Shown here in pieces: positions 5,933 through 58,865 of a stretch of 64,000 bases of DNA (the first letter of the stretch is position 1; each line of letters begins with the position of its first letter). This DNA is from Gemmatimonadota bacterium (GTDB lineage: Bacteria > Gemmatimonadota > Gemmatimonadetes > Palauibacterales > Palauibacteraceae). The notes beneath the pieces are model-generated. The model was not told where the DNA came from. It did no database searches and saw only the letters and a list, made by a program, of their open reading frames with translations. The position numbers were made by a program, and so were the translations under genes. The stretch spans positions 10,364 through 74,363 of the forward strand of contig JAWWCR010000001.1 in the NCBI GenBank assembly GCA_033720355.1. The letters run 5' to 3'.

Positions 5933-5941
5933 AGATCGGCG

Positions 5942-6742
5942 ATGCCCATCTCCGCGCTCATGGATCTGACCGGCCTCATGGGGCTGACCGCGCTCGCAGA
6001 CCTGGTCGCCTCCGCGTCGACCCTGGTCACGCAGGTCGAGCCGTCCGGAGGGCTCGCCGCGGCTCTGTCGGAGAGCCCGATCGTCGCGCTCGGCGCCCTG
6101 TTCGCGGCAGGGGTGCTGACGAGCTTCACGCCGTGCGTGTACCCGATGATCCCGATCACGGTCTCGGTGATCGGCGGAACCGCGACCGAGGACCAGAGCC
6201 GGTGGCGCACGCTCGGGCTCACCCTCACCTACGCTACCGGTCTGGCGCTCCTGTACGCGTTCCTCGGGATGCTCGCCGGGCTGAGCGGCACGCTCTTCGG
6301 CGCCGTTAGCGCGAGCCCCTGGGCCCTCCTCGCGATCGGGAACCTGCTGTTGCTGTTCGCCCTGTTCATGCTGGACGTGTTCCCCGTACCCGTCCCGCGC
6401 CGTCTGCTCGACTGGGCCGCGAGGAAGGAGGGCGGATCGTACGGTGCGGTCTTCGTCCTCGGTGCGACCTCCGGGGTCGTGACGGCGCCGTGTGGCGCAC
6501 CGGCCTTCGCCGTCGTCCTTACATGGGTCGCGGCGACGCAGGCGGGGCTGATGGGGTTCGTCTACCTCTTCGTCTTCTCGATGGGGATGACGGCGCTGCT
6601 GGTGGTGATCGGCCTGTTCTCGGGAACCCTGGCCGTTCTGCCGCGTTCAGGTTCGTGGATGGTGTGGGTGAAGCGCATCGCCGCCATCATCATGATCGCG
6701 ATGGCGCAGTACTACTTCGTGAGGGCGGGATACAACCTGTGA
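5942..6742 (+). CDS. ccdA: Cytochrome c biogenesis / thiol-disulfide transporter CcdA (DsbD transmembrane-domain family)
   Basis: 266-aa polytopic membrane ORF. It has FTPCVYPMIP and a second-half TAPCGAP motif, the two conserved Cys-containing helices of CcdA/DsbD-beta. Confidence 0.8.
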   Translation: MPISALMDLTGLMGLTALADLVASASTLVTQVEPSGGLAAALSESPIVALGALFAAGVLTSFTPCVYPMIPITVSVIGGTATEDQSRWRTLGLTLTYATGLALLYAFLGMLAGLSGTLFGAVSASPWALLAIGNLLLLFALFMLDVFPVPVPRRLLDWAARKEGGSYGAVFVLGATSGVVTAPCGAPAFAVVLTWVAATQAGLMGFVYLFVFSMGMTALLVVIGLFSGTLAVLPRSGSWMVWVKRIAAIIMIAMAQYYFVRAGYNL

Positions 6743-7296: not shown

Positions 7297-7306
7297 CCCT
7301 GGCCGA

Positions 7307-7786: not shown

Positions 7787-7936
7787 TCGGGATCCTCTCG
7801 GTGGGCGTCGGAGCTCGGTGGGCGTCAGAGCTCGGTGGGCATCGGAGACCGTACGGCCCGGAATCCGGTGGGATCCCGGGCCGCCAGCCGGTCGCTTCGT
7901 CGCCGGCGGGACCATCGGTCCCGCGATAGCAGCCTC

Positions 7937-43376: not shown

Positions 43377-43760
43377 ATGGGGTATCGACTGCTGGCCGAC
43401 ACCGTGCTGGTCGTGCATTTCCTCTTCATCGCGTTCGTCGTGGGCGGGGGATTCCTCGCGATCCGCTGGCGCCGCGTCACGTGGCTGCACCTTCCGGCCG
43501 CGGTCTGGGGCGCGGCGATCGAGTTCTTCGGCTGGGTCTGTCCGCTGACGCCGCTCGAGAACCACCTCCGACGACTGGGAGGCCAGGCCGGGTACACGGA
43601 CGGATTCATCGAGCACTACCTCATGCCGCTCGTGTACCCGCCCGGCCTCACGCGTGGCACGCAGCTCGTGCTCGCCGGGGTCGTCGTCGTGCTCAACGTG
43701 GCGGCGTATGCTCTCGTCGTGCGGCGGTGGCGCGCCGGGCGCCCCCGCCACCAGTGCTAG
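43377..43760 (+). CDS. DUF2784-family small membrane protein
   Basis: 127-aa ORF with 3-4 TM helices. HLPAAVWGAAIEFFGWVCPLTPLENHLR is the DUF2784 signature as I recall it. Confidence 0.6.
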   Translation: MGYRLLADTVLVVHFLFIAFVVGGGFLAIRWRRVTWLHLPAAVWGAAIEFFGWVCPLTPLENHLRRLGGQAGYTDGFIEHYLMPLVYPPGLTRGTQLVLAGVVVVLNVAAYALVVRRWRAGRPRHQC

Positions 43761-46444
43761 TCGGCGCGTAGCGCCTCGACGGGGTCGATGCGAGCGGCCC
43801 GCCGGGCCGGCAGCCAGCTGCACAGGACGCCGAGGGTAAAGACGAGGAGGCACCCTGCGGCGAGGACCCGCGGCTCGAGCGGGCTGACGCCGAACACGAA
43901 GCTCTCGAGCAACCGCGTCAGGGCCGCCGCGGCGAGAAGTCCCACGGCGAGACCGACGCTCGTCAGACGCACGCCGTCGCGGAGCACGAGCGAGATGGCG
44001 CCGCCCGGCGCGGCTCCCAGGGCGATGCGGACGCCGATCTCACGTCGTCGCCGTGACACCGCCTGAGCCATGACCCCCGCGATCCCGACGAGGGCCAGCA
44101 CGAGCGCCAGAGCCGCGAAGATCGCGAGCAGGGTGGCGCGCAGACGCGGGCCGCCCACCGTGCCGGCGAGCAGGTCGCCCATCGGGCTGATCGAGGAGAT
44201 GGCGATCCGCGGCTCGATCGAGTTGATGACCGCGCGGATCTCGTCCCCCATCGACTCGACGACCGCGTCGCCGCGGACGACGACCGAGAGCCCACGGGCG
44301 ATGCCGTTCCAGGGCTCCTGCGAGGCGGGCAGAAACGCCATCGGGCCCGGCGGCGTCTCGGGTCCGAAGTGGCGGATGTCCGCTACGACGCCGAGCACCG
44401 CGAACGTGTCGGAGTGGATGAGGGCCGACTTCCCGATGGCGCTTTCGCCGGGCCAGAACATCTCGGCCATCGCGGCGCTGATTACCATGCCCCCGGCGGC
44501 GTCGGCTCCGTCCCGCCACTCGATCCCCCGTCCCGTCACGAGTCGCGCGTCGAGCGCGTCGAGCGCCCCCGGCGTCACCGAGCGGACCTCCGCGCACCGG
44601 CCTTCCCCAGGCCCGGGCGGTGGCCGGTCGAGCGGGGTGACCCCGTCGCACGAGTAGTTGTCGGAGAGAGGTACGACGTCCATCGCGCCGGCCACCATCA
44701 CCCCCGGCAGAGCCTCGATTCGCTCGAGTACCTCGCGGTAGCGGTCCTCTGCCGCTTCGGGCTCCAGGTCCCACCAGGCGGCGCCGTGCATCTCGAGCGT
44801 CAGGACTCCGCGGCGCTGCACCCCAAGATCGACCCCGTGGAGATTCGCGAAGCTCTGAAGAAGCAGCCCGGCCCCGACCACGAGCACCAGCGTCGTCGCG
44901 ACCTGCGCCAGCACGAGGCCCCGTCGAAGTCGCTCTGCCCGTCCGGCGATCTCACCCCCCCGCGACCCGCCGACGGGCGAGAGCGGAGTCGAGCCCGCGA
45001 TACGAAGGGCGGGCAGCAGGCCGAAGAGTATTGCGGTCCCGCCGGCGAGCGCCGCCGAGAACGCGAGAACCGCGGCGTCGACCTCGATGGCGTCGGCTCG
45101 TGGCAGCCACTGTCCGGCGAGACCGACGATCGCGCCTACCGTCCCGTAGGCAAGGGCGACCCCGAGGACGCCTCCGACCAGCGCGATCGCGAGGCTCTCG
45201 GCGAACAGATGTGTGACCAGTCGCCCCCGCGACGCGCCCATCGATGATCGAACGAGGAGTTCCTCGCGGCGTTCGAGCATCCGTCCGGTCAGCAGGTTCG
45301 CCACGTTCACGCAGGCCACCAGCAGGACGAGACCGACTGCGCCCATCAGGACGTAGAGCGCCGTCCGTGTGTCGCCGACGACGCTGTCCCGAAGCGGTGC
45401 GAGCGTCATCGTTCGATCCGCGTTCTCTTCGGGGTAGGCATCCGCGAGGCGCGCCATCGCCGCCCTGACCTCCGGCTGCGCGCCGTCGACGTCGACCCCG
45501 TCCGCCAGACGCGCGACCCCCCTCCACGACCGGCCCGACCGAAACCAGTCGACGGCGTCGAAGTACGGCGTACGCCAGACCTCCGGCTGACGCCCGTTGT
45601 ACGTGACGAGGTTCGGCCCCTCGAAATCGGCGGGGGTGACGCCGGCCACGACGTAGGCCTCGTTGTTGAGTAGCACGCTCGACCCCGGAAGATCCGGATC
45701 GGCCCCGAAGCGTCTCGTCCACAGGCCGTGCGAGATCACCACCGTCGGGGTGCGCCCCTCCCCCTCCTCGTCAGGGACGAAGAAGCGTCCGGCCGCGGGC
45801 CGGACCCCCAGGACGTCGAAGTAGTCCCACGACACCGTCGCGCCCGGCAGCACTTCCGGGGCGCCCTCGGTGAAGGCGGGCTGCCATGCGGAGATCCCGG
45901 CGACACCGCTGAAGGCCGAGACCTCCGACTCGATATCGGCGAGGTTCGGGTACGACACGTTTGTCGATCGACCGGGCTCCCCGATCCGGTGGCCGATGAG
46001 TTGAACGAGCCGGTCGGGCTCGTCGTACGGGAAGGGCCGGAGGAGGACGCCCCGCACGATCCCGAGCAGGGCGGTGTTCGCGCCGATCCCCAGCATGAGC
46101 GTCACGACGGCGGTCGCGGTGAATCCGGGCCGGCTCCGGAGCGATCGGCCGGCGCGGCCGAGATCCTGGAACAGGTTGCGGAGCCCGAACCCGTGTGTCG
46201 TGAGATACCACGCGTCGCGCAGCGACCCGACGGCGTGGACGACCAGCCGAAGGCGATCGAGCGTCCCGACCCCCCTTCCCCGGGCGAGACGGTCGTGGGC
46301 GGCGAGGATCTCGGCGTTCCACTCGGCGCGCCAGGCCCTGCGGTCGGCGCTCGGCAACAGCCGGCTTGCCGCGCCGACGAACCGGATCGAGAAACGCACG
46401 AAGCGGTCGGGGGTTTCGGGGGTCGGAGGGGTCGGAGACAGCAT
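43757..46444 (-). CDS. Duplicated FtsX/MacB-like ABC permease ('ADOP' type), module 2
   Basis: 895-aa ORF with the same two-fold TM1 / periplasmic domain / 3-TM architecture. It ends PARRAARIDPVEALRAD. It starts 4 nt after the padR stop. Confidence 0.85.
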   Translation of the reverse strand: MLSPTPPTPETPDRFVRFSIRFVGAASRLLPSADRRAWRAEWNAEILAAHDRLARGRGVGTLDRLRLVVHAVGSLRDAWYLTTHGFGLRNLFQDLGRAGRSLRSRPGFTATAVVTLMLGIGANTALLGIVRGVLLRPFPYDEPDRLVQLIGHRIGEPGRSTNVSYPNLADIESEVSAFSGVAGISAWQPAFTEGAPEVLPGATVSWDYFDVLGVRPAAGRFFVPDEEGEGRTPTVVISHGLWTRRFGADPDLPGSSVLLNNEAYVVAGVTPADFEGPNLVTYNGRQPEVWRTPYFDAVDWFRSGRSWRGVARLADGVDVDGAQPEVRAAMARLADAYPEENADRTMTLAPLRDSVVGDTRTALYVLMGAVGLVLLVACVNVANLLTGRMLERREELLVRSSMGASRGRLVTHLFAESLAIALVGGVLGVALAYGTVGAIVGLAGQWLPRADAIEVDAAVLAFSAALAGGTAILFGLLPALRIAGSTPLSPVGGSRGGEIAGRAERLRRGLVLAQVATTLVLVVGAGLLLQSFANLHGVDLGVQRRGVLTLEMHGAAWWDLEPEAAEDRYREVLERIEALPGVMVAGAMDVVPLSDNYSCDGVTPLDRPPPGPGEGRCAEVRSVTPGALDALDARLVTGRGIEWRDGADAAGGMVISAAMAEMFWPGESAIGKSALIHSDTFAVLGVVADIRHFGPETPPGPMAFLPASQEPWNGIARGLSVVVRGDAVVESMGDEIRAVINSIEPRIAISSISPMGDLLAGTVGGPRLRATLLAIFAALALVLALVGIAGVMAQAVSRRRREIGVRIALGAAPGGAISLVLRDGVRLTSVGLAVGLLAAAALTRLLESFVFGVSPLEPRVLAAGCLLVFTLGVLCSWLPARRAARIDPVEALRAD

Positions 46445-46922: not shown

Positions 46923-49586
46923 CTACTCGGAGCGCAGAACCTCCACGGGATCGACGCGCAGGATCCGCCGCGCCGCGAGAGCCGCGGCTCCGAGGCCGAC
47001 CGCCACCAGCCCCACGACCGCCGCCGCATAGGCGACAGGGTCGATGGGCGTGATGCCGAAGAGGAACTCGCCGAGCAGCCGCGACCCCGCGAGCGCGGCC
47101 ACAAGCCCGACGGCCACGCCAGCACCCAGCGGCAGTGCCTCCCGGCCGAGCTCGCGAACGAGCAGCCGTCCGGGGTCGGCGCCGAGGGCCACGCGGACTC
47201 CGAGCTCCCTCATGCGCGCAACGAGGCTGCGGCCCGTCACGCCGAAGACGCCGATCCCGGCGAGGAGCGTGGCGGTCAGCGCGAAGTCGGCGAGAAGGAG
47301 CGTTCTGTAACGCTGGCCCGCCAGCGACCCCGCGACCACCGACGAGAACGGTCGGACATCCTCGAGAGGAAGCGCCGGGTCCAGCGACCAGATCGCCTCA
47401 CGCGCCGGGGCCGCCAGCCCGCCCGGGTCACCGGAACCCCCCAGCACCAGGGAGACACGCTGTCGGACATCGTCCTCCTCCTGGTGGATCGGCGTGTAGA
47501 AGGTGGCGTCGGGGGCGCTCCTCAGGTCGGACATGATGACGTCGCCCACCACCCCGACGATCTCCCACCGCCGGTTGTCGCGCAGGATCGCCTGGCCGAT
47601 CGCCGTGTCTCCGGGCCAGAACCTGGACTCCATCGCCTCGCTCACCACCACGACGGGCTGGCCGCCGTCCCGATCGGCCGCCTCGAAGCCGCGTCCCTCG
47701 CGGATCGGGATGCCGAGCGTCTCGAAGTAGCCCGGTAGCACCGACCGGCGCGTGGCTTCGGGGCCCTGCTCGGAGTCGGGGGTCACCCGACCGGGGATCT
47801 CGAAGCTCGAGCTGCCGCCACGCCCCGAGAACGGGAGCGCGCTCGACCCGGTGACCGACGTGACGCCGGGCAGCGCGCCGAGTCGCTCGGTGACGCGGAA
47901 GAGCAGGGCCGAGCGGGACGCACCATCGGGATATCGGTCCACGGGGAGCCCCAGCTCGACGACCAGGCTCCCCTCCGCCTCGAACCCGGGGTCCACCGAC
48001 AGCTCGGCGACCAGGCTGCGCGTGAGCAGGCCCGTACCGACGAGGAGTACGAGGGAGATGGCGAACTGGGCCGCGACGAGACCGTTCTGCGTACGGCGGC
48101 CGCCACCGCCCCGCCCGGGAAGCTTGCGGAGCGTCGCCTGGAGATCGGGCGATCCGGCGATGAAGGCCGGCACGAGACCGAACGCCAGGCTCGTGAGCGC
48201 TCCGAGACCCGCGGTGAAGGCCAGAATTCGCGGGTCGAGCGGGGCGACGGCGGACAGACCGAGCTCGGAGGGCGCCCACCTCAACAGGACTCCGCGCAGC
48301 GCGAACGCGAGTCCGTAGCCGCCCAGAACTCCGCCTCCGGCAAGGACGAGCGCCTCGACGAGGAGCTGTCGCGTGAGGCGCCCCGCCCCGGCACCGAGGG
48401 TCGCGCGCGTGGCGAGCTCGCCACGCCGCGCCGCGAGGCGGCCGAGCAGGAGGGTCGCGACGTTCACGCAGGCGAGTAGCATGAGGAGCGACACCGCCCC
48501 GAGCAGGAGCAGAAGCGGCCCCCGTGCGTTCTTCGTCTGCTCGGTGTGTCGAAGCGTGACCCGCACGCCGCGCGATTCGGGCGGGGCGCCGCCGGTGACG
48601 AGGCGCTGTGTCTCCGCCACGGCCGTCGGCGTGATGCCGCCAGCGAGTCTCCCCATGGCCTCGTACACGTGGTTGCCGTCGTCGCGGTCGACCGGCTCGC
48701 CTCCGGCCGGCACCCAGAGGGTGGCCTCGCCGATGCCCGGTACGACCGACCCGAAGCGGAAGTCGGGGGGCAGCACGCCAATCACTCGAAAGGTGCGTCC
48801 GTCGAGCCGGATCGACCGGCCGATGACCTGCGCGTCGCCCCCCCAAACGCGCTGCCATGCATCGTGGTGGAGTACGGCGACGTCGGCCGCCCCGGGGCCT
48901 CCCTCGTGGGGTCCGAAGAGACGGCCCAGCAGGGGAGAGACCCCGAGCAGCGGCCACAGCGATGGAGTCGCCCACCCCACCATGACGGATCGGGGGTCCC
49001 CCGAACCCACCAGGGCCATCTGCGTCGCGCGGTAGACCGCGATCTCTTCGTACGCCGTCTGGTCGCGGCGCCATGTCTCGTACTCGGGGTACGAGAGACC
49101 GATCCGGTCCCACAGTGCGTCGAGCACGTGGTGGCCCTGCCAGCCGGGGTAGGTGTTCCAGATGGTGACGAGCTCGTCGGGCCTGTCGAAGGGAAGGCTG
49201 CGGAAGAGCACCCGGTCGACGATCGAGAAGACGGCCGTCGTCGCGCCGATCCCCACCGTGAGGGTCGCCACGATCAGAGCCGCCTGCCCGGGTCGGCGAC
49301 GCATTGCGCGGAAGGCGAACCGCGCGTCGTGCGCCCCCGCAGAAAGCCAGCGTCCCGGCGCGGAAGCCGGCGGGCGCCTCAGCGCGTTGCCGAGCCGGGC
49401 GAGAAACGGCCCGATCGCACGTCGCGCCTCCGCGCGATAGTGGCGACGGGCGGCGCGGCGGCCGTCCGCCTCGAGCCGGGTCGCGAACTCCTCCTCGAGG
49501 TCTCCGAGCGCGAACTCACGCTGCGATGTGGGGAGGAGGATGCGAAGCAGCCAGGCCGAGAAGCGTGGGGGCCGAGCCGGCGTCAT
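46923..49586 (-). CDS. Duplicated FtsX/MacB-like ABC permease ('ADOP' type), module 3
   Basis: 887-aa ORF with the same architecture. It ends ARRILRVDPVEVLRSE. Its start overlaps the padR-3 stop (ATGA). Confidence 0.85.
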   Translation of the reverse strand: MTPARPPRFSAWLLRILLPTSQREFALGDLEEEFATRLEADGRRAARRHYRAEARRAIGPFLARLGNALRRPPASAPGRWLSAGAHDARFAFRAMRRRPGQAALIVATLTVGIGATTAVFSIVDRVLFRSLPFDRPDELVTIWNTYPGWQGHHVLDALWDRIGLSYPEYETWRRDQTAYEEIAVYRATQMALVGSGDPRSVMVGWATPSLWPLLGVSPLLGRLFGPHEGGPGAADVAVLHHDAWQRVWGGDAQVIGRSIRLDGRTFRVIGVLPPDFRFGSVVPGIGEATLWVPAGGEPVDRDDGNHVYEAMGRLAGGITPTAVAETQRLVTGGAPPESRGVRVTLRHTEQTKNARGPLLLLLGAVSLLMLLACVNVATLLLGRLAARRGELATRATLGAGAGRLTRQLLVEALVLAGGGVLGGYGLAFALRGVLLRWAPSELGLSAVAPLDPRILAFTAGLGALTSLAFGLVPAFIAGSPDLQATLRKLPGRGGGGRRTQNGLVAAQFAISLVLLVGTGLLTRSLVAELSVDPGFEAEGSLVVELGLPVDRYPDGASRSALLFRVTERLGALPGVTSVTGSSALPFSGRGGSSSFEIPGRVTPDSEQGPEATRRSVLPGYFETLGIPIREGRGFEAADRDGGQPVVVVSEAMESRFWPGDTAIGQAILRDNRRWEIVGVVGDVIMSDLRSAPDATFYTPIHQEEDDVRQRVSLVLGGSGDPGGLAAPAREAIWSLDPALPLEDVRPFSSVVAGSLAGQRYRTLLLADFALTATLLAGIGVFGVTGRSLVARMRELGVRVALGADPGRLLVRELGREALPLGAGVAVGLVAALAGSRLLGEFLFGITPIDPVAYAAAVVGLVAVGLGAAALAARRILRVDPVEVLRSE

Positions 49587-50548: not shown

Positions 50549-50818
50549 CGGGACGCTCCTGGCACAGGTTGACGGGCGACGAGCGTCTGAGGCGCCGTCG
50601 CATCTGCAAAAAGGGATACTTTCGCAACAACCGACCGTACCCGCCGCCGTCCATCCGGTTCTCGCGCCTCGAGTCATCGGACGACCGATGTCGCGAAACG
50701 ACCGTTGACCCGCGGGTTCTCGCACCCGCGTCGCCGGGTGTAGCCCGGGGGTGGCCCCGGGTGGCACGGCGCGTGCCCGATCCGGACCCGGATGTCCACC
50801 AGACGGGGGGTTGTACAG

Positions 50819-51427
50819 ATGGGTAGGAGACTTACCGGTTTGAGCACGGCCGTGGCGCTGCTGCTCTTCACGGCCTGTTCGAGCGACGACGTCACCGCAC
50901 CGCTGCCGAGCGGCGGAGATGAGATCTCCGCCAGCGAGGCGGCCGCGATCTCGGAGTTCCTCACGTCGGCGGCGTTCCAGGCCTGGGACTTCGAGGACAT
51001 CGGCGGCGGCGGTGGCGCCGCTCTGCATTCGGGCGTGCCGATCGCGATCGACTACTCCGTCGACGCCAGCGTCGCGTGCCCGCTGGGAGGGCAGATCGGC
51101 GTTCAGGGCGCGATCTCCGGCTCGATCGATGACGCGACGTACTCCGGCAGCCTGGACCTCCAAGTCGCCACGACGGCGACGGCCTGCGGCTTCCTCGCCG
51201 AGGCGACACAGTTCACGCTGGACACGAGCCCGGCTCTCGTGTTGACGGGGGCCTTCTCGTTCGATCAGGGCCAGATGGTCGGCGATGCCGTGTTCGGATA
51301 CGCCGGCGGCGTGCTGTGGGCGGCGGACGATGGCCGCTCGGGTTCGTGCACCTACGACGTGTCGGTCACCGTAAGCCAGACGGGCTCGGTCGTCGAGAGC
51401 GGCACGGTGTGCGGTCAGGCGCTCTGA
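50819..51427 (+). CDS. Hypothetical lipoprotein
   Basis: MGRRLTGLSTAVALLLFTAC has a lipobox. The rest is Gly/Ser/Ala-rich with 4 further Cys. No recognisable family. Confidence 0.5.
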   Translation: MGRRLTGLSTAVALLLFTACSSDDVTAPLPSGGDEISASEAAAISEFLTSAAFQAWDFEDIGGGGGAALHSGVPIAIDYSVDASVACPLGGQIGVQGAISGSIDDATYSGSLDLQVATTATACGFLAEATQFTLDTSPALVLTGAFSFDQGQMVGDAVFGYAGGVLWAADDGRSGSCTYDVSVTVSQTGSVVESGTVCGQAL

Positions 51428-51654
51428 CGCGATCGGCTCGCTCCGTCCCCCCGGGCGGATGAGCCGCGAAACGGGCCGTCCCGCGTTGACGTAGGAGAAG
51501 ACGCGTCCGAGAAAGCCGACAGTCCATCGGACGGGGGCCCAGGAGAGGGTGTGGCAGCTCTCCGGGGCCCCTGTTCGCTTGCCCGCGGCCCTCGCGAGGG
51601 TGAGCTTTGCGGGGCCGGCACGGTCGGCATGAACACGAAGTCCAGGAGCCGAAC

Positions 51655-53454
51655 ATGGCACGAAAGACGGCCCTCGCGGCGTTCCCCGTCGCGATCGTCG
51701 CGATCGCGGCGGTTCTCCTTCTCTTCCCCGCCCTCAATCGTACCCCCGTGATCGCCGCGGGCGACATGGGTGCGTTCGGATTCGTCCCGGGCGAGCTGAT
51801 CGCCGATTTCGACTACAGGGACGTGTCGGGCGACAGGGGATCACTCGAGTCCCTGCTCGAGGGGAACGATGCTCTCGTCATCGTGATGCGTACCGCCGAA
51901 TGTCCGGTGTCCCGTCGCTACGGTACCCGGCTGGCGGAGATGGAGCGGGCGTACCGCGAGCGAGGTGTCCAGTTCGTGTATCTGAACATCAGCCAGCAGG
52001 ACTCGAAGGAGGACGTCGCCGAAGACATCGAGCGGTTCGGGTTTGCGGCGCCGTACATCCTCGACCCCGATCGTGAGATCGGCTCGAGGCTGCAGGCGAG
52101 CATCTCGTCCGAGGTCTTCGTGATCGACGCGGCGAAGACACTTCGCTACCGCGGCGCCGTCGACGACCAGCATGGCATCACCTTCTCGAACCCTCGGGTC
52201 GACGAGCAGTACCTGGCCGATGCGCTCGAGGCCGTGCTCGCCGGCTACGACGTCCGGACGCCCTACACCGAAGCCTCCGGCTGCTATCTCGAAGGCGAGA
52301 CGGCCCTCGTCCCGCAACGCGACGTCACCTACCACAGCAGGATCAGCCGGATCGTCAGTCAGAACTGCGTGACCTGTCACCGCGAGGGCGGCGTCGGGCC
52401 GTTCGCGCTCGACAGCTACGAGCAGCTCTACGGCTTCCGGCACATGGTCAGGTTCATGGTCGGCGAGGGGCTGATGCCCCCGTGGTATGCCTCGCCCGAG
52501 CACGGCGAGTGGTCGAACGATCGCAGCCTGTCGGAACGCGACAAGCGCGATCTGCTCGCGTGGATCGACGCCGGTGCCCCCGAGGGCGACCCCGCCACGG
52601 CGGCCCTCCCGCGTCAGCTCAAGCCGGGCTGGATGCTCGGCGTCGAGCCCGACACGGTGATCACGATCCCCGCGCCGCAGGAAGTGCCGGCGGACGGCGT
52701 ACTCGACTACCGACACGTCTACGTCGAGACGAACTGGCCCGAGGACAAGTGGGTCCGGGCCGCGGAGGTCGTGCCGACGGCCAGGCAGGTGACGCACCAC
52801 GTCATCGTCTACCTCGAGGACGAGGACGACGAGGAGCGCGGCGGGTGGCTCGTCGGGTACGCCCCGGGTGTCCCGGCGCGCGACTGGGGCGAGAATACCG
52901 GGAAGCGGATCCCGGCCGGCCAGACGCTCATGTTCGAGCTCCACTACACGACGAATGGAGAGCCGGCGGTCGACGAGACCCGCGTGGGACTCTACTTCCA
53001 CGACGAGCCGCCGCCCGAAGAGGTGTACATGGCCGCGGTCGCGACCGACGAGTTCGAGATCCCGCCGCACGCGGCGAACCACGAGGTCGTCGCCGAGCTC
53101 GAGTTCGAGAACCCCGGACGGATCATCTCGCTGTTGCCGCACATGCACCTGCGCGGGAAAGCGTTCCGCTACGATCTCGTGCGGGCCGACGGATCGAGCG
53201 AGACGCTGCTCGACGTGCCGCGGTACGACTTCAACTGGCAGATGACCTACAAGCCGGTCCACCCGTTCGAGATCCGGGCGGGCGACAGGCTCATCGGGAC
53301 CGCCTGGTACGACAACAGCGAGGGCAACCCGGCGAACCCGGATCCGAGCCAGCCGGTGCGCTACGGCGAGCAGAGCTTCGAGGAGATGATGTTCGGCTTC
53401 TTCGAGCTGCTGCCCGGCGAGGCGCCCGGCGAGGAGTCCTCCCGGGATCAGTGA
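51655..53454 (+). CDS. Three-module redox protein: thioredoxin-fold (CxxS) + cytochrome c (CXXCH) + PHM/DBH-like copper monooxygenase-type domain
   Basis: ATG 51655 gives 599 aa with an N-terminal TM/signal. The redoxin-like block is ALVIVMRTAECPVSRRY...VFVIDAAKTLRYRG. Then come CVTCH (C238/C241/H242) + GLMPPW, THHV (H381/382), ELH (H430), PHMHLRGK (H496/498) and FEEMMFGF (M578/579). Paralog of 722..2143. Confidence 0.8.
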   Translation: MARKTALAAFPVAIVAIAAVLLLFPALNRTPVIAAGDMGAFGFVPGELIADFDYRDVSGDRGSLESLLEGNDALVIVMRTAECPVSRRYGTRLAEMERAYRERGVQFVYLNISQQDSKEDVAEDIERFGFAAPYILDPDREIGSRLQASISSEVFVIDAAKTLRYRGAVDDQHGITFSNPRVDEQYLADALEAVLAGYDVRTPYTEASGCYLEGETALVPQRDVTYHSRISRIVSQNCVTCHREGGVGPFALDSYEQLYGFRHMVRFMVGEGLMPPWYASPEHGEWSNDRSLSERDKRDLLAWIDAGAPEGDPATAALPRQLKPGWMLGVEPDTVITIPAPQEVPADGVLDYRHVYVETNWPEDKWVRAAEVVPTARQVTHHVIVYLEDEDDEERGGWLVGYAPGVPARDWGENTGKRIPAGQTLMFELHYTTNGEPAVDETRVGLYFHDEPPPEEVYMAAVATDEFEIPPHAANHEVVAELEFENPGRIISLLPHMHLRGKAFRYDLVRADGSSETLLDVPRYDFNWQMTYKPVHPFEIRAGDRLIGTAWYDNSEGNPANPDPSQPVRYGEQSFEEMMFGFFELLPGEAPGEESSRDQ

Positions 53455-55164: not shown

Positions 55165-57234
55165 TCAGGACGGAGAGGTGAGGCCGCTCGTCGAGTGCAG
55201 GAGCTCGTCGATCGCGTCCTCGAGACCCGACAGCGTGTAGGGCTTCGGCAGGAAGCGCGCCGGTCCGTACTCGGCGAGGACCTCGATCGGCGAAAGGACG
55301 TACCCGCTCGAGAGAAGCACCGGGATGTCGCGTCCGCTCTGACGGATCTCCCTCAGCACCTCCACCCCGCTCATCCCGGGCATCGTGATGTCGAGGAGGA
55401 TGCACGTGAGCACGTCGCCGTGCTCGGCGACGGCCTCCAGAGCGGCGTGCCCGTCGCTCGCCTCGACGACCTGGTACCCGAGTCGACGCACGAGGGCCAC
55501 GGCCGCGCGTCGCACCGATGGTTCGTCGTCCACGACCAGCACGGCCCCCGTCCGCCGCTCGAGATCGGGGATCGGGGGGGTCGGTACTGTGTCGATCGGC
55601 GCATCCTCGAGCGGGAAGATGAGGGTGAAGACTGTGCCTGCCCCCAGCTCGCTACGGACGTTCAGCGCGCCTCCGTGTCCGCGCACGATCCCGAGCACCG
55701 ATGCGAGGCCGAGACCGCGGCCGGCGCCCCGGGTCGTGAAGACGGGGTCGAAGATGCGTTCGAGGTTGTCGGCGGCGATCCCCTCGCCGGTGTCCTCCAC
55801 CTCGAGCACGGCGACGGGGCCCTCCGGTGGATCGAGGTAGAACACACCCCTCTCGCGATACCAGTTCGCGTCGAGCGCCGCGTACGTCCGGACGGTGATC
55901 TGACCCCTTCGCACCCCGAGGGCATCGCCCGCGTTCGCGAACAGGTTGAGGATGACCCGACGCAGCTGACCCGTGTCCGCCATCACCGGCAGATCCTCGG
56001 GCGCCAGATCGTAGTTCAGGACGGTGCCCTTCGGGACCGTGACCCTGAGGAGAGACGTGATCTCGCTGACCACGGACGAGAGATCGACGACGGAGCGTTC
56101 GTAGGGGCCCTGCCCGGCGTACGCAAGCAGCTGACGGCACAGCTCGGTAGCGCGTTCCGATGCCCTCACGGACTGGTCGAGCGCGTCGTACGTGGGATCG
56201 GAAGGATCCGTGTCCATGAGGATGAGGTCCACGTTGCCCATGATCGCGACGAGCAGGTTGTTGAAGTCGTGCGCGATCCCGCCGGCGAGCGCCCCGAGAC
56301 TCTCGAGCTTCTCGGAGCGCCGCACCCGCCGCTCGAGTCGCTCCTGCTCGACCTGCGCACCTGTCCGCTCGGCGACGAGACCCGCGACGAAGAGCGTCGA
56401 GAACTCGGCGGCGCACACGTAGACGAGCGTCAGCACGAGGCTCGTGTTCGGCGACACGTGGGTGAACGGGCCGATCCCGGCGAGGGTGCCGACGAGCGCG
56501 AACGCCGCGGCGGCGAAGCTGGCCGAGGAGGCCCCGAACTGACCGCACCTGTACGCGGACCAGATCAGGAAGGGGAACGAGAGGAAGGTGAGCGGGAGGC
56601 TCGAAACGCTCGCGGGCACGATCGGCGTGAAGCTGATCGACAGGGTGACCGCCAGACCGATGCAAATCGCCGCCGCCTCCCAGAACGGGATCCTCGGGGG
56701 CGCGGGCGAGATGCCGGGGAAGGACAGGATCAGCGGCGTGAGGACCACGCATCCCATCACGTGGGTGAGCCACCACATGAACCACAACTCGCCCGGGCTC
56801 CGGAGACCGGAGGTGAGCGCCAGCGTACCGACGCTGACGACGGACGACAGCGCGGTGGCGACCACGAGCGCGAGGGTGAACGTGATGAGATCGATCCGGC
56901 TCTGGAGCCGTCGACCGATCCCCGCCCGCTCGAAGATCCACACGAGGAGAAGGATCTCCCCCGTGTTCGCGACCGCCGTCGCGAGGACGAAGAGCGGTGT
57001 GCCGCCCGAGAGGGCCGTCGTGAGCGCCGCGCCGATCGCGACCCCCGGCCAGAGGCGGACGCCGCCCAGGATCAGCCAGGCCAGCGCGATGCCGCTCGGG
57101 AGCCAGATCATCCGGCGCAGCTCGAGGGTCGCCTCGGGCAACGACAGCACCCCGATGCCGGTTACCGCGTAGACGGCTGCGAGCGCGATGGTCCCGAGGA
57201 TCCGTCTGTTCGTCTGTCGGGTCGAGGTGGACAC
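55165..57234 (-). CDS. Hybrid sensor histidine kinase (MASE1-like membrane sensor + HisKA/HATPase + receiver)
   Basis: Trimmed to GTG 57232-57234. It has about 8 TM helices, then the H-box GGIAHDFNNLL, the N-box ILNLFANAGDA, the G-boxes DTGEGI / GRGLGLA, and the receiver VLVVDDEP...LLDITMPGMSG...PKP. Confidence 0.8.
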   Translation of the reverse strand: MSTSTRQTNRRILGTIALAAVYAVTGIGVLSLPEATLELRRMIWLPSGIALAWLILGGVRLWPGVAIGAALTTALSGGTPLFVLATAVANTGEILLLVWIFERAGIGRRLQSRIDLITFTLALVVATALSSVVSVGTLALTSGLRSPGELWFMWWLTHVMGCVVLTPLILSFPGISPAPPRIPFWEAAAICIGLAVTLSISFTPIVPASVSSLPLTFLSFPFLIWSAYRCGQFGASSASFAAAAFALVGTLAGIGPFTHVSPNTSLVLTLVYVCAAEFSTLFVAGLVAERTGAQVEQERLERRVRRSEKLESLGALAGGIAHDFNNLLVAIMGNVDLILMDTDPSDPTYDALDQSVRASERATELCRQLLAYAGQGPYERSVVDLSSVVSEITSLLRVTVPKGTVLNYDLAPEDLPVMADTGQLRRVILNLFANAGDALGVRRGQITVRTYAALDANWYRERGVFYLDPPEGPVAVLEVEDTGEGIAADNLERIFDPVFTTRGAGRGLGLASVLGIVRGHGGALNVRSELGAGTVFTLIFPLEDAPIDTVPTPPIPDLERRTGAVLVVDDEPSVRRAAVALVRRLGYQVVEASDGHAALEAVAEHGDVLTCILLDITMPGMSGVEVLREIRQSGRDIPVLLSSGYVLSPIEVLAEYGPARFLPKPYTLSGLEDAIDELLHSTSGLTSPS

Positions 57235-57602
57235 GGCGCCGGTTCCACTGAAGACAGGGCGGCCGCACGACGGATATGCCGTGGGCCGCGGTTCGTCGAT
57301 AGTGAGGGGCGCTACCCTCGAACGAAAGGGGTCGCGGGATCCGCCGCCCCGCCGCCGCTCCCGGATCGGGGACGATCGCGCACGGTGACTCGCCCTCGCG
57401 CTCCGGGCGATTCGCCACGCCGCGTGCGTAACGGCAAGTCGGACAGGCTCTACGTCGCGGCAACGCCGGTCGGGCGGTTCGCGAGACGCATGTCCCCGCA
57501 CGGACGCGAACCCGCGGGTCTCGCCACGGCGGGACCCGTTCCCCGCCGCCACGGCGGCCGATGCCCCGGCGCCGGAACACTCCGTGCAGGCACGCGGTGC
57601 GC

Positions 57603-58865
57603 ATGAGAATCGCGCGTAGTTACGGGCTGGTCGCCGCGGTGTTGACCGCGAGCTGCGGAGAGCGACCGCCTGAACCGGTAGAGCCTTCGGCACCCCCCGT
57701 GCGACGGGATTCGGCGGGCATCCGTATCGTGGAGAACTCCGCCCCTGCCCGCACCGGGGGATGGTCCTGGCGTCTCGCGGACCGCCCGTCCCTGACGATC
57801 CGATCGGTGCTCGCGAACGAGAGGAGTCCGCTCGTCGAGCCGGTGAGCGCGTACCGGAGGGCCGACGGCTCGTACGTAGTGGCGGACGGCGGCTTCTCGA
57901 CCTTCAACGAGGTGCTGGTGTTCAACGGCAGGGGCCGCCTGGTCTCGTCCTTCGGCGGCACGGGCGACGGGCCGGGAGAGTTCCTTCAGGTCTGGTGGGC
58001 TCTTTCGTACCGGGGTGACTCGATCGCCGTCTACGATATCCGAAATACCGTCTCGATCTTCGACGACGACGGAGCCTTCGGCCGCACCGTGCGTCTTCCG
58101 GACTTCTCCAGACCCCGATCGTCGGTCCCGACCGGAACCACCTCCTGGGCCCACGCGGTCTACGAGGACGGGTCCTTCCTGGCATCACCCTCCGGAACCA
58201 CCCTGGATGAGGGGCCGGGCGCCCTCACCTTCGAGGCGGAGCTGCTCCGCGTCGGTCCGGATGGGGCCTCGTGGGACACGCTCGGCGTCTTTCCGGTGTC
58301 GCAGGTTCACTGGGACGGCAGGACGCTGGGTGCCTATCCGTTCGAGCGTATCGGACACCGCGCGCTTCGGGGCGGGGAGCTCGTGTTCGGGAACGGCGAG
58401 ACGTGGGAGATCCGCGTGTACGCCCCGGACGGACATCTGAGTCAGGTCGTGCGCAGAAACGACGCACCCGAGCCGGTGACGGCCGCGGACATGGACAGGT
58501 GGACGGAGTGGAACGTGGGCCGGCACGCGAGCGGCCCCGAGGGCGGGTCCGCGGCCATGGAACGCGCGAGCGAACGCGCGGAACGGGTGGAGCCCCCCGA
58601 GACGAAGCCGGCCTTCTCCTACCTGCTCGTCGACGGGGCAGGCAACATCTGGGCGGAGAACTATCGCTGGGCCTGGGATGATGTCCCACCGGACCCCGGA
58701 CCGGCGACGTGGTCGGTCTTCGACCCCGATGGGGAGTGGATCACGGACGTCGAGGTTCCCGCCCGTCTGCTGCTGCGATGGGTCGGGACGGAGTACGCCA
58801 TCGGGTTCCACGTCGACGAGCTGGATGCGAAGCACGTGCAGGTGTTCGAGATCCGGAAGCCCTGA
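57603..58865 (+). CDS. Lipoprotein, probable 6-bladed beta-propeller
   Basis: MRIARSYGLVAAVLTASC has a lipobox. Repeated DG..YV.D / G.GPGEF strand-like units occur (GTGDGPGEFLQV). No catalytic motif recognised. Confidence 0.55.
   Translation: MRIARSYGLVAAVLTASCGERPPEPVEPSAPPVRRDSAGIRIVENSAPARTGGWSWRLADRPSLTIRSVLANERSPLVEPVSAYRRADGSYVVADGGFSTFNEVLVFNGRGRLVSSFGGTGDGPGEFLQVWWALSYRGDSIAVYDIRNTVSIFDDDGAFGRTVRLPDFSRPRSSVPTGTTSWAHAVYEDGSFLASPSGTTLDEGPGALTFEAELLRVGPDGASWDTLGVFPVSQVHWDGRTLGAYPFERIGHRALRGGELVFGNGETWEIRVYAPDGHLSQVVRRNDAPEPVTAADMDRWTEWNVGRHASGPEGGSAAMERASERAERVEPPETKPAFSYLLVDGAGNIWAENYRWAWDDVPPDPGPATWSVFDPDGEWITDVEVPARLLLRWVGTEYAIGFHVDELDAKHVQVFEIRKP

What the first reader, a model, noticed from the sequence alone, without database searches (positions are those of the whole stretch)
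51655..53454. Second paralog adds an N-terminal CxxS thioredoxin-fold module (Trx + haem c + PHM-like)
- The same haem-c + HH/H/HxH/M arrangement is present: C238-V-T-C241-H242, GLMPPW, H381/382, H430, H496/498, M578/579.
- It is preceded by a membrane anchor and a redoxin-like domain whose active site is C83-P-V-S, a single Cys.
- Having two paralogs 50 kb apart with different N-terminal modules indicates a modular family under diversification.
- A CxxS thioredoxin fold next to a copper monooxygenase-like domain could act in several ways. It could be a substrate-thiol or peroxide-sensing module, or it could deliver a Cys-linked substrate.
- The gene appears monocistronic, with 227 bp upstream and 98 bp downstream.
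Basis: partly seen in the sequence, partly recalled or inferred. Interest (0 to 1): 0.65.

Follow-up and report, generated by a model that had tools for sequence, protein, structure and literature searches.

The report
Bacterial thioredoxin–haem c–copper monooxygenase fusion
This gene encodes an exported, membrane-anchored bacterial protein that joins a thioredoxin-like domain, a c-type cytochrome and a copper monooxygenase of the type that makes animal neuropeptides and noradrenaline; it belongs to a large, conserved family that I found no study of.

Summary

- **Conservation:** in 117 full-length homologues C83, CxxCH, M-P-P, H381/H382, H430 and H496/H498 never change, and M578 is kept in 116.
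- **Structure:** an AlphaFold model (pLDDT 92) matches rat PHM and human DBH over both copper domains. It matches the PRX_like1-type thioredoxin folds 2cvb, 2ywi and 3u5r over the N-terminal module. All six copper ligands align with those of DBH.
- **First correction:** the thioredoxin module does not have a single Cys. C210 is also invariant, sits where 2ywi has a proposed resolving Cys, and is lost together with C83. The usual cis-proline is Ser here.
- **Second correction:** "monocistronic" is unproven.
- **Third correction:** paralog 1 has no alternative N-terminal module. It has a conserved separate partner gene of about 280 aa instead.

The three-module cassette occurs in at least 596 species genomes across six phyla and has no conserved neighbouring gene.

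Most likely mechanism: the haem c replaces ascorbate and passes electrons to CuH and then CuM for O2-dependent hydroxylation in the periplasm. The C83/C210 pair is probably a thiol-redox accessory.

The substrate is unknown, and nine full-text searches found no paper on such a bacterial fusion. I rate it a new variant of a known kind, of moderate interest.

The parts
51644..51648 (+). Shine-Dalgarno-like AGGAG, 6 nt before the ATG
   Evidence: Read directly from the sequence. It supports 51655 as the start rather than the TTG at 51607.
51655..53454 (+). Whole gene, 599 aa plus stop: Trx-like, haem c and PHM-like fusion
   Evidence: It is identical to P0001, which NCBI names 'redoxin family protein [Gemmatimonadota bacterium]'.
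51655..51735 (+). N-terminal hydrophobic helix (residues 1-27): signal anchor or signal peptide
   Evidence: The model shows a helix at residues 2-27. Kyte-Doolittle peak is 2.6 and there is no other TM-like segment. 106 of 113 complete homologues have an N-terminal hydrophobic segment.
51772..52320 (+). Thioredoxin-fold module of PRX_like1 type (about residues 40-222)
   Evidence: Pfam AhpC-TSA 41.6 bits and Redoxin 40.6 bits, both above their cutoffs. PDB sequence hits 2cvb, 2ywi and 3u5r at E about 1e-9. Foldseek TM-score 0.80-0.84 normalised to those targets.
51901..51912 (+). C83-P84-V85-S86, at the CxxC position of TlpA/ResA-type thioredoxins
   Evidence: C83 and P84 are 117/117 and 116/117. 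Position 86 is S 80, A 13, C 13, T 7, G 3. The register against 3kcm (CPPC) and the ResA variant 3c71 (CPHC) comes.
52108..52110 (+). S152, at the position of the Trx-fold cis-proline
   Evidence: It aligns with the Pro of 'TPE/TPD' in 2cvb, 2ywi and 3u5r and of ResA. In the family the position is T 66, S 31, A 14, P 2.
52282..52284 (+). C210, within the invariant G209-C210: the second conserved Cys of the Trx module
   Evidence: 117/117. It aligns with 'GC.IK' of 2cvb, 2ywi and 3u5r. It is lost together with C83 in divergent members. PMC3091736 treats the C-terminal Cys of 2ywi as a candidate resolving Cys.
52321..52605 (+). Mono-haem c module (about residues 223-317)
   Evidence: CxxCH at 238-242 and M274-P-P are invariant. 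The Pfam Cytochrome_CBB3 hit is weak: 19.5 bits, below the 27-bit cutoff.
52366..52380 (+). C238-V-T-C241-H242 haem c attachment motif
   Evidence: 117/117 for C, C and H.
52474..52485 (+). M274-P-P-W, the candidate distal Met ligand of the haem
   Evidence: M, P and P are 117/117. The role as axial ligand is inferred.
52606..53010 (+). PHM/DBH-like N-terminal copper domain (about residues 318-452), with CuH ligands H381, H382 and H430
   Evidence: Foldseek hits 3mll (E 8e-15) and 4zel. The profile alignment to DBH puts HH on HH and H430-Y on the DBH 'VHYH' His. All three are invariant.
53011..53424 (+). PHM/DBH-like C-terminal copper domain (about residues 453-590), with CuM ligands H496, H498 and M578
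   Evidence: Pfam Cu2_monoox_C 24.3 bits against a 23-bit cutoff. 'PHMHLRG' aligns with DBH 'LHTHLTG' and 'EEMM' with DBH 'EEMC'.
722..2143 (-). Paralog 1: signal peptide, haem c and PHM-like domain, with no Trx module (473 aa)
   Evidence: Identity by module is haem 38%, PHM-N 27% and PHM-C 35%. All haem and Cu ligands are shared.
2228..3076 (-). Conserved secreted partner of paralog 1, about 280 aa, with an invariant H-x-Q-C-C-W motif. It is context only, not part of the finding's gene.
   Evidence: The same gene sits directly upstream of paralog-1 homologues in L085, L086 and L087. It has at least 2027 homologues. It is absent near the Trx-fused genes.

Best explanation
The gene encodes a self-contained periplasmic redox enzyme held at the outer face of the cytoplasmic membrane by its N-terminal helix. 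It has three modules.

1. A PRX_like1-type thioredoxin fold. Its reactive Cys (C83) sits at the N-terminal CxxC position. The classical resolving Cys is replaced by Ser and the cis-proline is lost, but a second invariant Cys (C210) lies in the C-terminal tail.
2. A low-spin mono-haem c, with His242 and probably Met274 as axial ligands.
3. A two-domain PHM/DBH-type dicopper monooxygenase.

**Proposed mechanism.** Bacteria lack the ascorbate / cytochrome b561 supply that animal PHM and DBH use. The fused haem c therefore takes single electrons from a periplasmic respiratory donor and passes them to CuH (H381, H382, H430) and then to CuM (H496, H498, M578). There O2 is activated and a C-H bond of an extracytoplasmic substrate is hydroxylated.

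The Trx-like module is an accessory, because the paralog and thousands of relatives work without it. It most likely acts through a C83/C210 thiol-disulfide or sulfenate couple. That couple would handle a thiol or a peroxide next to the copper site, rather than act as a classical CxxC oxidoreductase.

**Shown here:** the architecture, folds, ligand conservation, export signal and accessory status. **Inferred:** the direction of electron flow, the monooxygenase chemistry and the role of the Cys pair. **Unknown:** the substrate.
For: - **Domains:** Pfam AhpC-TSA and Redoxin score above their cutoffs, and Cu2_monoox_C scores 24.3 bits against a 23-bit cutoff.
- **Model:** the AlphaFold model has pLDDT 92.2 and pTM 0.84, so the inter-domain arrangement is confidently predicted.
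- **Fold matches:** Foldseek finds PHM 3mll (E 8e-15, 271 columns, TM-score 0.66 normalised to the target), DBH 4zel, and the Trx-like 2cvb, 2ywo, 3u5r and 2ywi (TM-score about 0.8).
- **Copper ligands:** the family profile hits DBH 4zel_A (E 3.3e-5) with all six ligand positions in register.
- **Invariance:** the haem motif, M-P-P, all six Cu ligands, C83 and C210 are invariant in 117 homologues spanning several phyla.
- **Trx register:** C83 aligns with the first Cys of CPxC, and 13 of 117 homologues keep C-P-x-C.
- **Cys pair:** C210 aligns with the conserved C-terminal Cys of 2cvb, 2ywi and 3u5r, which PMC3091736 reads as a resolving Cys. In 88 diverse Trx modules, 70 have both Cys. All 7 that replaced C83 also lack C210 (Fisher p = 1.3e-6, uncorrected for phylogeny).
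- **Export:** there is an N-terminal hydrophobic helix here and in 106 of 113 complete homologues. A CcdA/DsbD_TM gene for the periplasmic thiol-reducing pathway used in cytochrome c maturation lies in the window.
- **Self-sufficiency:** no gene neighbour is conserved across 80 genome loci; the best neighbour cluster occurs in 8 of 80.
- **Accessory status of Trx:** paralog 1 and at least 7029 relatives have haem c plus the PHM-like domain only.
Against: - There is no experimental data for any member, and nine full-text searches found no paper on a bacterial fusion of this type.
- Haem-to-CuH and C83-to-C210 distances could not be measured, because model coordinates are not exposed. Electron flow and the Cys pairing are therefore inferences.
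- The Pfam cytochrome hit is below its cutoff, and the N-terminal PHM domain (PF01082) is not detected by sequence.
- In the DBH alignment the segment after the CuM Met reads M-M-F-G-F here against M-C-V-N-Y in DBH. From my memory of PHM, this segment holds peptide-substrate contacts, so a glycine-extended peptide is probably not the substrate.
- The co-loss of C83 and C210 occurs in modules that are degenerate overall. It may reflect general decay rather than specific coupling.
- A Cys pair next to a one-electron haem has no obvious role in a PHM-type catalytic cycle.
Confidence: 0.6

Rival explanations
1. The Trx-like module captures a thiol-bearing substrate, such as a Cys-containing peptide, protein or small thiol, as a mixed disulfide on C83. 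It then presents that substrate to the CuM site for hydroxylation.
For: C83 sits at the nucleophilic CxxC position and the resolving Cys is replaced by Ser, Ala or Thr in about 85% of homologues. CxxS variants of thioredoxins are known to trap mixed disulfides (my own knowledge). The Trx module is confidently docked to the rest of the model (pTM 0.84). Residues near the copper sites differ between the Trx-fused and Trx-less paralogs: Y431 vs L, F526 vs W and Q529 vs H.
Against: The cis-proline loop, which in Trx-fold enzymes holds the substrate backbone in mixed disulfides (my own knowledge), is Ser, Thr or Ala in 98% of close homologues. The invariant C210 offers an internal resolving partner, which argues against a long-lived mixed disulfide. 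No substrate-like small gene is conserved nearby.
Confidence: 0.15
2. The Trx-like module is a peroxide-handling domain that works like a 1-Cys or atypical 2-Cys peroxiredoxin, with C83 as the peroxidatic Cys and C210 as the resolving Cys. It would either remove H2O2 leaking from the copper site or sense and gate peroxide supply to it.
For: The best Pfam hit is AhpC/TSA. The nearest structures are PRX_like1 proteins. 2ywi was used as a peroxiredoxin-like template because of its C-terminal "resolving" Cys (PMC3091736). C83 and C210 are conserved together.
Against: C83 aligns with the first Cys of CxxC, whereas the peroxidatic Cys of true peroxiredoxins aligns with the second (CDD cd02969 description, from memory). 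There is no Pro at position -7, and Thr/Ser at position -3 is present in only 50 of 117 homologues. The residue at the cis-Pro / peroxiredoxin-Arg position is Ser or Thr. PMC3514251 notes that PRX_like proteins lack the other residues of the catalytic triad.
Confidence: 0.15
3. The Trx-like module is the electron entry point. A C83/C210 dithiol, recharged through the CcdA/DsbD pathway, delivers the two electrons needed per turnover to the haem and then to the two coppers. Run in reverse, the protein would be a thiol oxidase that passes thiol-derived electrons to O2.
For: The module order Trx, haem, CuH domain, CuM domain mirrors such a chain. A dithiol holds exactly the two electrons a PHM cycle needs. 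A CcdA gene is present in the window. The Trx-less paralog instead has a separate partner with an invariant vicinal C-C motif.
Against: Direct dithiol-to-haem transfer without a flavin or metal converter between two-electron and one-electron steps is chemically awkward (my own knowledge). The Trx-less family functions with the haem alone. The cis-Pro needed for docking with thiol-disulfide partners is lost. Some members have lost both Cys yet keep the domain.
Confidence: 0.1
4. The Trx-like module is mainly structural or acts in maturation. It would be a docking scaffold, or an in-cis helper for reducing the apocytochrome CxxCH or for copper loading, with no part in steady-state catalysis.
For: Weak NCBIfam similarity to ResA and DsbE/CcmG. 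The module lies about 150 residues upstream of the CxxCH. About 8% of divergent members (7 of 88) keep the fold but have lost C83, and all of these also lack C210. The canonical oxidoreductase features, the resolving Cys and the cis-Pro, are degraded.
Against: C83, P84, G209 and C210 are 116-117 of 117 across phyla, together with Y165-R166-G167 and D170. That is stronger constraint than a scaffold needs. The copper sites have no Cys ligands that would need reducing. The Trx-less paralog matures without the module.
Confidence: 0.1

Closest known systems
Peptidylglycine alpha-hydroxylating monooxygenase (PHM) and dopamine beta-hydroxylase (DBH): copper type II ascorbate-dependent monooxygenases (Pfam PF01082 / PF03712)
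   Same: Both have a two-beta-sandwich catalytic core (Foldseek E 8e-15 to PHM 3mll, also DBH 4zel). The CuH ligands H-H...H and the CuM ligands H-x-H...M are in register with DBH and invariant in the family.
   Different: This protein is bacterial and periplasmic. It has no Cys, and so no disulfides, in the copper domains. It is fused to a haem c and a Trx-like domain, so ascorbate is presumably not the reductant. PF01082 is not detected and PF03712 is only just above its cutoff. The segment after the CuM Met differs from DBH. The substrate is unknown.
PRX_like1 (CDD cd02969) thioredoxin-fold proteins: PDB 2cvb/2ywo (Thermus), 2ywi (Geobacillus), 3u5r (Sinorhizobium SMc02350)
   Same: These are the best sequence and fold matches for residues about 46-214. 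They share the C-P-hydrophobic motif, Y-[RH]-G-x-x-D-D and the C-terminal G-C.
   Different: Those proteins are stand-alone, about 190 aa and uncharacterised. They keep the T-P cis-proline, and two of them have an extra Cys at position -3 (CNHC). Here the cis-Pro is Ser, and the module is fused to haem c and a copper enzyme.
TlpA / ResA / CcmG (DsbE) periplasmic thiol-disulfide oxidoreductases
   Same: The fold is the same and the active-site register matches: C83 aligns with the first Cys of CxxC. Both are membrane-anchored and periplasmic. Thirteen of 117 homologues retain C-P-x-C.
   Different: The resolving Cys is Ser in this protein, the cis-Pro is lost, and E-values to ResA are only 0.003-0.1. 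The NCBIfam ResA and DsbE scores are far below their cutoffs.
Cytochrome-domain-fed copper oxygenases: the cellobiose dehydrogenase cytochrome domain feeding LPMO, and eukaryotic cytochrome b561 / DOMON partners of DBH-type enzymes (functional analogy, from my own knowledge)
   Same: The logic is the same: a one-electron haem carrier placed next to a mononuclear-copper O2-activating site in an extracytoplasmic compartment.
   Different: Here the haem is c-type and covalently fused in one polypeptide. The copper domain has the PHM fold, not the LPMO fold. No homology is implied.
Trx-less haem c plus PHM-like family, represented by paralog 1 at window 722..2143 (-)
   Same: The haem motif, M-P-P-W, all six Cu ligands, R-G after H-x-H and the D-N...N-P-x-N-P-D motifs are shared. 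Identity is 27-38% per module.
   Different: It has no Trx module. It has a conserved secreted partner gene of about 280 aa with an invariant Q-C-C-W motif. That partner is absent near the Trx-fused genes.

Membership tests
Copper type II monooxygenase (PHM/DBH) | Two-domain beta-sandwich catalytic core | tested here: met
   Foldseek: 3mll E 8e-15, 271 aligned columns, TM-score 0.66 normalised to the target; 4zel E 2e-14, on a model with pLDDT 92.
Copper type II monooxygenase (PHM/DBH) | CuH ligands H-H...H | tested here: met
   H381, H382 and H430 are in register with DBH 'VHHMEVF' and 'EVHYH'. All are 117/117.
Copper type II monooxygenase (PHM/DBH) | CuM ligands H-x-H...M | tested here: met
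   H496, H498 and M578 are in register with DBH 'HTHLTG' and 'EEMC'. Conservation is 117, 117 and 116 of 117.
Copper type II monooxygenase (PHM/DBH) | Curated Pfam models PF01082 (N domain) and PF03712 (C domain) | tested here: inconclusive
   PF03712 scores 24.3 bits against a 23-bit cutoff. PF01082 gave no hit at E <= 1.
Copper type II monooxygenase (PHM/DBH) | Ascorbate-dependent, O2-dependent C-H hydroxylation | not testable with these tools
   This needs biochemistry. The fused haem c suggests a different reductant.
Class I c-type cytochrome | CxxCH haem attachment motif on an exported polypeptide | tested here: met
   C238-x-x-C241-H242 is invariant. An N-terminal hydrophobic export segment is present.
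Class I c-type cytochrome | Curated family model above its cutoff; Met sixth ligand | tested here: inconclusive
   Cytochrome_CBB3 scores 19.5 bits against a 27-bit cutoff. M274 in the invariant M-P-P is a candidate ligand by inference only.
PRX_like1 / AhpC-TSA-type thioredoxin fold | Trx fold, with the family model above its cutoff | tested here: met
   AhpC-TSA 41.6 bits against 26, and Redoxin 40.6 against 26.6. Foldseek TM-score 0.80-0.84 normalised to 2cvb, 3u5r and 2ywi.
PRX_like1 / AhpC-TSA-type thioredoxin fold | Conserved Cys at the first-Cys position of CxxC, plus a conserved C-terminal G-C | tested here: met
   Register. C210 aligns with 'GC.IK'. Both are 117/117.
Canonical thiol-disulfide oxidoreductase (TlpA/ResA/DsbE) | CxxC dithiol | tested here: not met
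   This protein has C-P-V-S. Only 13 of 117 close homologues and 4 of 88 diverse ones have Cys at position 86.
Canonical thiol-disulfide oxidoreductase (TlpA/ResA/DsbE) | cis-Proline loop opposite the active site | tested here: not met
   S152 aligns with the Pro of 2cvb, 2ywi, 3u5r and ResA. Pro occurs in 2 of 117 close homologues and 24 of 88 diverse ones.
True peroxiredoxin | P-x-x-x-T/S-x-x-C motif with the catalytic Arg | tested here: not met
   Position -7 is Ile. Thr/Ser at position -3 occurs in only 50 of 117. C83 aligns with the first, not the second, CxxC position.

The most novel reading that the evidence does not exclude
The Trx, haem c and PHM-like cassette is an ascorbate-independent copper monooxygenase wired directly to the bacterial respiratory or thiol-redox chains. 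It would hydroxylate a cell-envelope or extracellular polymer, most likely a glycan, rather than a peptide. The C83/C210 pair would gate or support the copper chemistry. The hint towards glycans comes from the modules found fused to the cassette: MBOAT O-acyltransferase, CBM48, 3-keto-disaccharide hydrolase and an esterase. One member is also translationally coupled to a sulfatase gene, and this window's copy sits beside a Wzx-type flippase. If correct, this would be a new class of bacterial oxidative polymer-modifying enzyme built on the PHM fold.
Probability: 0.2. Interest if true: 0.8.

Novelty: new variant of a known kind. Interest (0 to 1): 0.55.

Why it matters
PHM and DBH are textbook animal enzymes, and how electrons reach and cross their two well-separated copper sites is still debated.

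- **A new experimental system.** A large bacterial family carries the same copper core. My exhaustive search found about 4,700 to 8,700 clusters at 50% identity. Here the reductant is built in as a covalently fused haem c. That would allow electron transfer to be triggered and followed spectroscopically in a soluble, disulfide-free protein that bacteria can express.
- **A new enzyme class in bacteria.** The family is found in Planctomycetota, Verrucomicrobiota, Gemmatimonadota, Acidobacteriota, Armatimonadota and some Burkholderiales. Databases label it only as "redoxin family protein", so periplasmic copper monooxygenase chemistry would be new for these groups.
- **An unusual thioredoxin module.** It has a reactive Cys, no resolving Cys in the motif, no cis-proline and a distal invariant Cys. 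This combination is a poorly understood branch of the thioredoxin superfamily.

Tried and rejected
- **Conserved operon partner.** I made ORF sets from 80 genome loci (±6 kb) and clustered them all-against-all. The best true neighbour cluster occurs in 8 of 80 loci (a PQQ-type propeller). Next came DUF1501, PSCyt/DUF1553, sulfatase, beta-lactamase and Gfo/Idh/MocA, at 4-6 loci each. All are families that are expanded in Planctomycetes anyway. Four look-ups of longer contigs gave the same answer.
- **Close-relative synteny.** Only the closest relative, L005 (68% identity), keeps the upstream lipoprotein and the downstream histidine kinase.
- **A spurious large fusion.** The 1723-aa ORF in L014 that looked like a giant fusion is a high-GC artefact with low-complexity Arg/Gly/Pro sequence.
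- **True peroxiredoxin or canonical CxxC oxidoreductase.** Both are rejected on motif and register.
- **Partner of paralog 1 near the Trx-fused genes.** It is absent from all 80 loci, and the window has only one copy.
- **Fold of that partner.** It gives only generic two-domain Ig-like matches, which are not informative. It has no hit in Pfam, NCBIfam or PDB sequences.
- **Promoter and terminator scan.** It found no sigma-70-like promoter and no terminator in either flanking gap, so it is uninformative about the transcription unit.
- **Literature.** Nine full-text searches found no paper on bacterial PHM-like or cytochrome c fusions. Two papers were useful only for the PRX_like1 fold.
- **Not possible here.** C83-C210, C83-haem and haem-CuH distances could not be measured, because model coordinates are not exposed.
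Full report

The ORF list shows a + strand frame from 51607 to 53454. It gives a 599-aa product identical to a database protein of that length, P0001, which NCBI names "redoxin family protein [Gemmatimonadota bacterium]".

- C83-P-V-S86
- C238-V-T-C241-H242
- G-L-M-P-P-W
- H381/H382, H430, H496/H498
- M578/M579

The protein has only four cysteines, at 83, 210, 238 and 241. The flanking gaps of 227 bp and 98 bp are correct. The paralog is at 722..2143 on the minus strand (473 aa) and shares 29% identity over residues 223-578 (E 5e-43).

**2. Is it more than chance?**

I aligned 117 full-length homologues of 42-100% identity from several phyla. The following are present in all 117: C83, C210, C238, C241, H242, M274-P275-P276, H381, H382, H430, H496 and H498. 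P84 and M578 are each present in 116. The N-terminal block models as a thioredoxin fold, C83 is conserved, and the copper ligands do not vary.

**3. What are the three modules?**

*Sequence models.* Pfam finds AhpC-TSA (residues 46-165, 41.6 bits) and Redoxin, both above their cutoffs. It finds Cu2_monoox_C (489-556, 24.3 bits against a 23-bit cutoff). It also finds a sub-threshold cytochrome c match around the CxxCH.

*Structure.* An AlphaFold model built on a 71-sequence alignment is confident throughout, with pLDDT 92.2 and pTM 0.84. Foldseek against the PDB gives these matches:
- Rat PHM as the best hit: 3mll, E 8e-15, 271 aligned columns, TM-score 0.66 normalised to the target.
- Human DBH (4zel).
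- For the N-terminal part, the uncharacterised thioredoxin-like proteins 2cvb/2ywo, 3u5r and 2ywi, with TM-scores of 0.80-0.84.
- ResA after those.

*Copper ligands.* A profile of the C-terminal 273 residues hits DBH by sequence (E 3.3e-5). The alignment puts all six ligands in register:
- H381/H382 on the DBH "VHHMEVF" pair
- H430 on "EVHYH"
- H496-x-H498 on "HTHLTG"
- M578 on "EEMC"

The copper domain is therefore a real, ligand-complete member of the PHM/DBH fold. The N-terminal Pfam model PF01082 does not detect it, however, and the stretch after the CuM methionine differs from DBH. This argues against a glycine-extended peptide as substrate. That last step rests on my memory of the PHM substrate contacts.

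**4. The thioredoxin module in detail**

*Register.* Sequence alignment to 3kcm (atwCPPC) and to the ResA variant 3c71 (gtwCPHC) places C83 on the first, nucleophilic Cys of CxxC and S86 on the resolving-Cys position. Position 86 is Ser in 80 homologues, Ala in 13, Cys in 13, Thr in 7 and Gly in 3. The Cys cases are EF-hand-bearing Planctomycetota-type variants reading G-C-P-L-C.

- C210, in an invariant G-C, is a second fully conserved Cys of this module. It aligns with the "GC.IK" motif shared by 2cvb, 2ywi and 3u5r. A published analysis chose 2ywi as a template precisely because of this C-terminal Cys, which it read as a "resolving cysteine" (PMC3091736).
- The cis-proline that nearly all thiol-disulfide oxidoreductases carry, seen as T-P in 2cvb, 2ywi and 3u5r, is S152 here. 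Pro occurs at this position in only 2 of 117 close homologues.

*A wider sample.* I examined 88 thioredoxin modules taken from 50%-identity cluster representatives. C83 and C210 occur together in 70. All 7 modules that replaced C83 also lack C210 (Fisher p = 1.3e-6, not corrected for phylogeny). No full-length module keeps C210 without C83.

*Classification.* The module is best described as PRX_like1 (cd02969; motif listed in PMC3514251) with a C83/C210 pair. It is not a single-Cys thioredoxin, a true peroxiredoxin or a classical CxxC reductase. It lacks the P-x-x-x-T-x-x-C motif, and its Cys is in the wrong register for a peroxiredoxin.

**5. Localisation**

Residues 2-27 form the only strongly hydrophobic segment in the protein. 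Of 113 complete homologues, 106 have such a segment. Covalent haem c attachment also requires export. The window contains a CcdA/DsbD_TM gene at 5942..6742. All three modules should therefore face the periplasm.

**6. How widespread and how modular is it?**

*Size of the family.*
- The word-indexed search returned 1,474 hits at E <= 1e-5, among the 8,000 candidates that were scored.
They are mostly Planctomycetota, with Gemmatimonadota, Verrucomicrobiota, Acidobacteriota, Armatimonadota and Burkholderiales as well.
- Cultured carriers include Zavarzinella formosa, Singulisphaera sp. Ch08, Lacipirellula limnantheis and Undibacterium sp. TJN19.
- An exhaustive HMMER search with the copper domain alone, against 1.84 billion cluster representatives, gave 8,730 hits at E <= 1e-3 and 4,679 at E <= 1e-10.

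*Architectures of the best 150 representatives.*

| Architecture | Count |
|---|---|
| Trx, haem, PHM-like | 86 |
| Tandem double cassette | 1 |
| Haem, PHM-like | 41 |
| PHM-like only | 21 |
| Haem only | 1 |

Many of the PHM-only entries are short proteins, probably fragments.

*Further modules fused to the cassette.*
- An N-terminal MBOAT acyltransferase, with its W-H-I-S histidine motif intact
- BlaR1-type M56 at the N terminus together with a C-terminal CBM48
- A C-terminal alpha/beta-hydrolase
- An N-terminal 3-keto-disaccharide hydrolase
- TPR repeats
- EF-hands

"A modular family under diversification" is therefore correct. The accessory modules lean towards carbohydrate or envelope chemistry, but this is only a lead.

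**7. Genomic context**

No neighbouring gene is conserved across 80 loci; the best cluster occurs in 8 of 80. Longer contigs show unrelated neighbours. One EF-hand variant overlaps the start of a sulfatase gene.

In this window the neighbours are as follows:
- An unannotated lipoprotein upstream
- A Wzx-type flippase downstream, on the same strand
- A MASE1 hybrid histidine kinase beyond that

Only the nearest relative keeps the lipoprotein and the kinase. All three genes around the finding are on the + strand and no terminator was detected in the gaps. "Monocistronic" therefore remains unproven. The lack of conserved synteny does fit a self-sufficient enzyme.

**8. The paralog**

Paralog 1 has a signal peptide, CQECH, M-P-P-W and all six copper ligands, but no thioredoxin module. 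Its family is larger still, with at least 7,029 hits of about 455 aa and no Pfam annotation.

It has a conserved partner of about 280 aa immediately upstream:
- In this window the partner is at 2228..3076 (-).
- The same arrangement is seen in L085, L086 and L087.
- The partner family has at least 2,027 members with an invariant H-x-Q-C-C-W motif.
- It folds as two Ig-like sandwiches with no informative match.
- It is absent near the Trx-fused genes.

The true contrast between the paralogs is therefore a fused thioredoxin-like module versus a separate Cys-bearing partner protein. It is possible, but untested, that these two accessories play equivalent roles.

**9. Mechanism**

*Directly shown.*
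- The architecture and folds
- The complete ligand sets
- The export signal
- That the thioredoxin module is dispensable for the core family

*Inferred.*
- The His/Met haem c is an electron-transfer centre that stands in for ascorbate.
- It feeds CuH and then CuM.
- The enzyme hydroxylates an extracytoplasmic substrate using O2.

For the thioredoxin module I favour a C83/C210 thiol-redox couple acting beside the copper site, but my confidence in that part is only about 0.3. The rivals are substrate capture as a mixed disulfide, peroxide handling, thiol-based electron entry, and a structural or maturation role. None is excluded, because I could not read inter-residue distances from the model and no biochemistry exists.

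**10. Novelty and verdict**

Nine full-text searches found no paper on a bacterial cytochrome c plus PHM-like fusion. Databases call these proteins "redoxin family protein", "cytochrome c" or "hypothetical".

The gene is one ordinary member of a large, conserved family that I found no study of. Relative to PHM and DBH the family is a new variant of a known kind, because it has a built-in haem reductant and a thiol module. The finding is real and was largely read correctly. It is of moderate interest, mainly as an entry point to an unexplored class of bacterial copper monooxygenases.

Noticed in passing
window 2228..3076 (-), with 722..2143 (-): The Trx-less paralog forms a conserved two-gene unit with a secreted protein of about 280 aa. 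That protein has no Pfam, NCBIfam or PDB sequence match. Its invariant residues include H96, D189-D190, H265, Q267, C268-C269 and W270, and it has at least 2,027 homologues. The AlphaFold model (pLDDT 82) is two Ig-like beta-sandwiches with only generic fold matches. The same gene pair is found in L085, L086 and L087.
   Followed up: partly
L004 7001..9352 and 9349..11169: In a Planctomycetota-type contig, the EF-hand-bearing cassette P0107 overlaps by 4 nt the start of a sulfatase gene that also carries EF-hands. This suggests translational coupling.
   Followed up: no
P0079, P0095, P0245 (MBOAT fusions); P0295; P0311; P0343; P0241: The Trx, haem c and PHM-like cassette is found fused to several other modules. 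These are an MBOAT O-acyltransferase, BlaR1-M56 with CBM48, an alpha/beta-hydrolase and a 3-keto-disaccharide hydrolase. It also occurs once as a tandem double cassette of 1251 aa. Several of these partners point towards glycan or envelope substrates.
   Followed up: partly
window 43757..46444 (-) and 46923..49586 (-): Two tandem MacB_PCD/FtsX-type permease genes of about 890 aa lie upstream. A gene of the same type also sits next to the homologue P0081 in L001 (5352..7784). These genes are highly multiplied in such genomes, so this is probably coincidence.
   Followed up: no
window 5942..6742 (+); L085 1..889: A CcdA/DsbD_TM gene lies a few kb from paralog 1. In L085 the same region also has an adjacent thioredoxin/AhpC-TSA gene and a creatininase gene. 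This indicates a partly syntenic block within Gemmatimonadota.
   Followed up: no
window 50792..51427 (+): There is a 211-aa predicted lipoprotein (signal ending ...LLLFTAC) with no Pfam match and only a weak NCBIfam SrpBC similarity (E 0.005). It is conserved upstream of the closest homologue only (L005 4801..5529, 42% identity).
   Followed up: partly
window 55165..57693 (-): A hybrid histidine kinase with MASE1, HisKA, HATPase and receiver domains lies convergent to the flippase. It is also conserved next to the homologue in L005 (59% identity).
   Followed up: no
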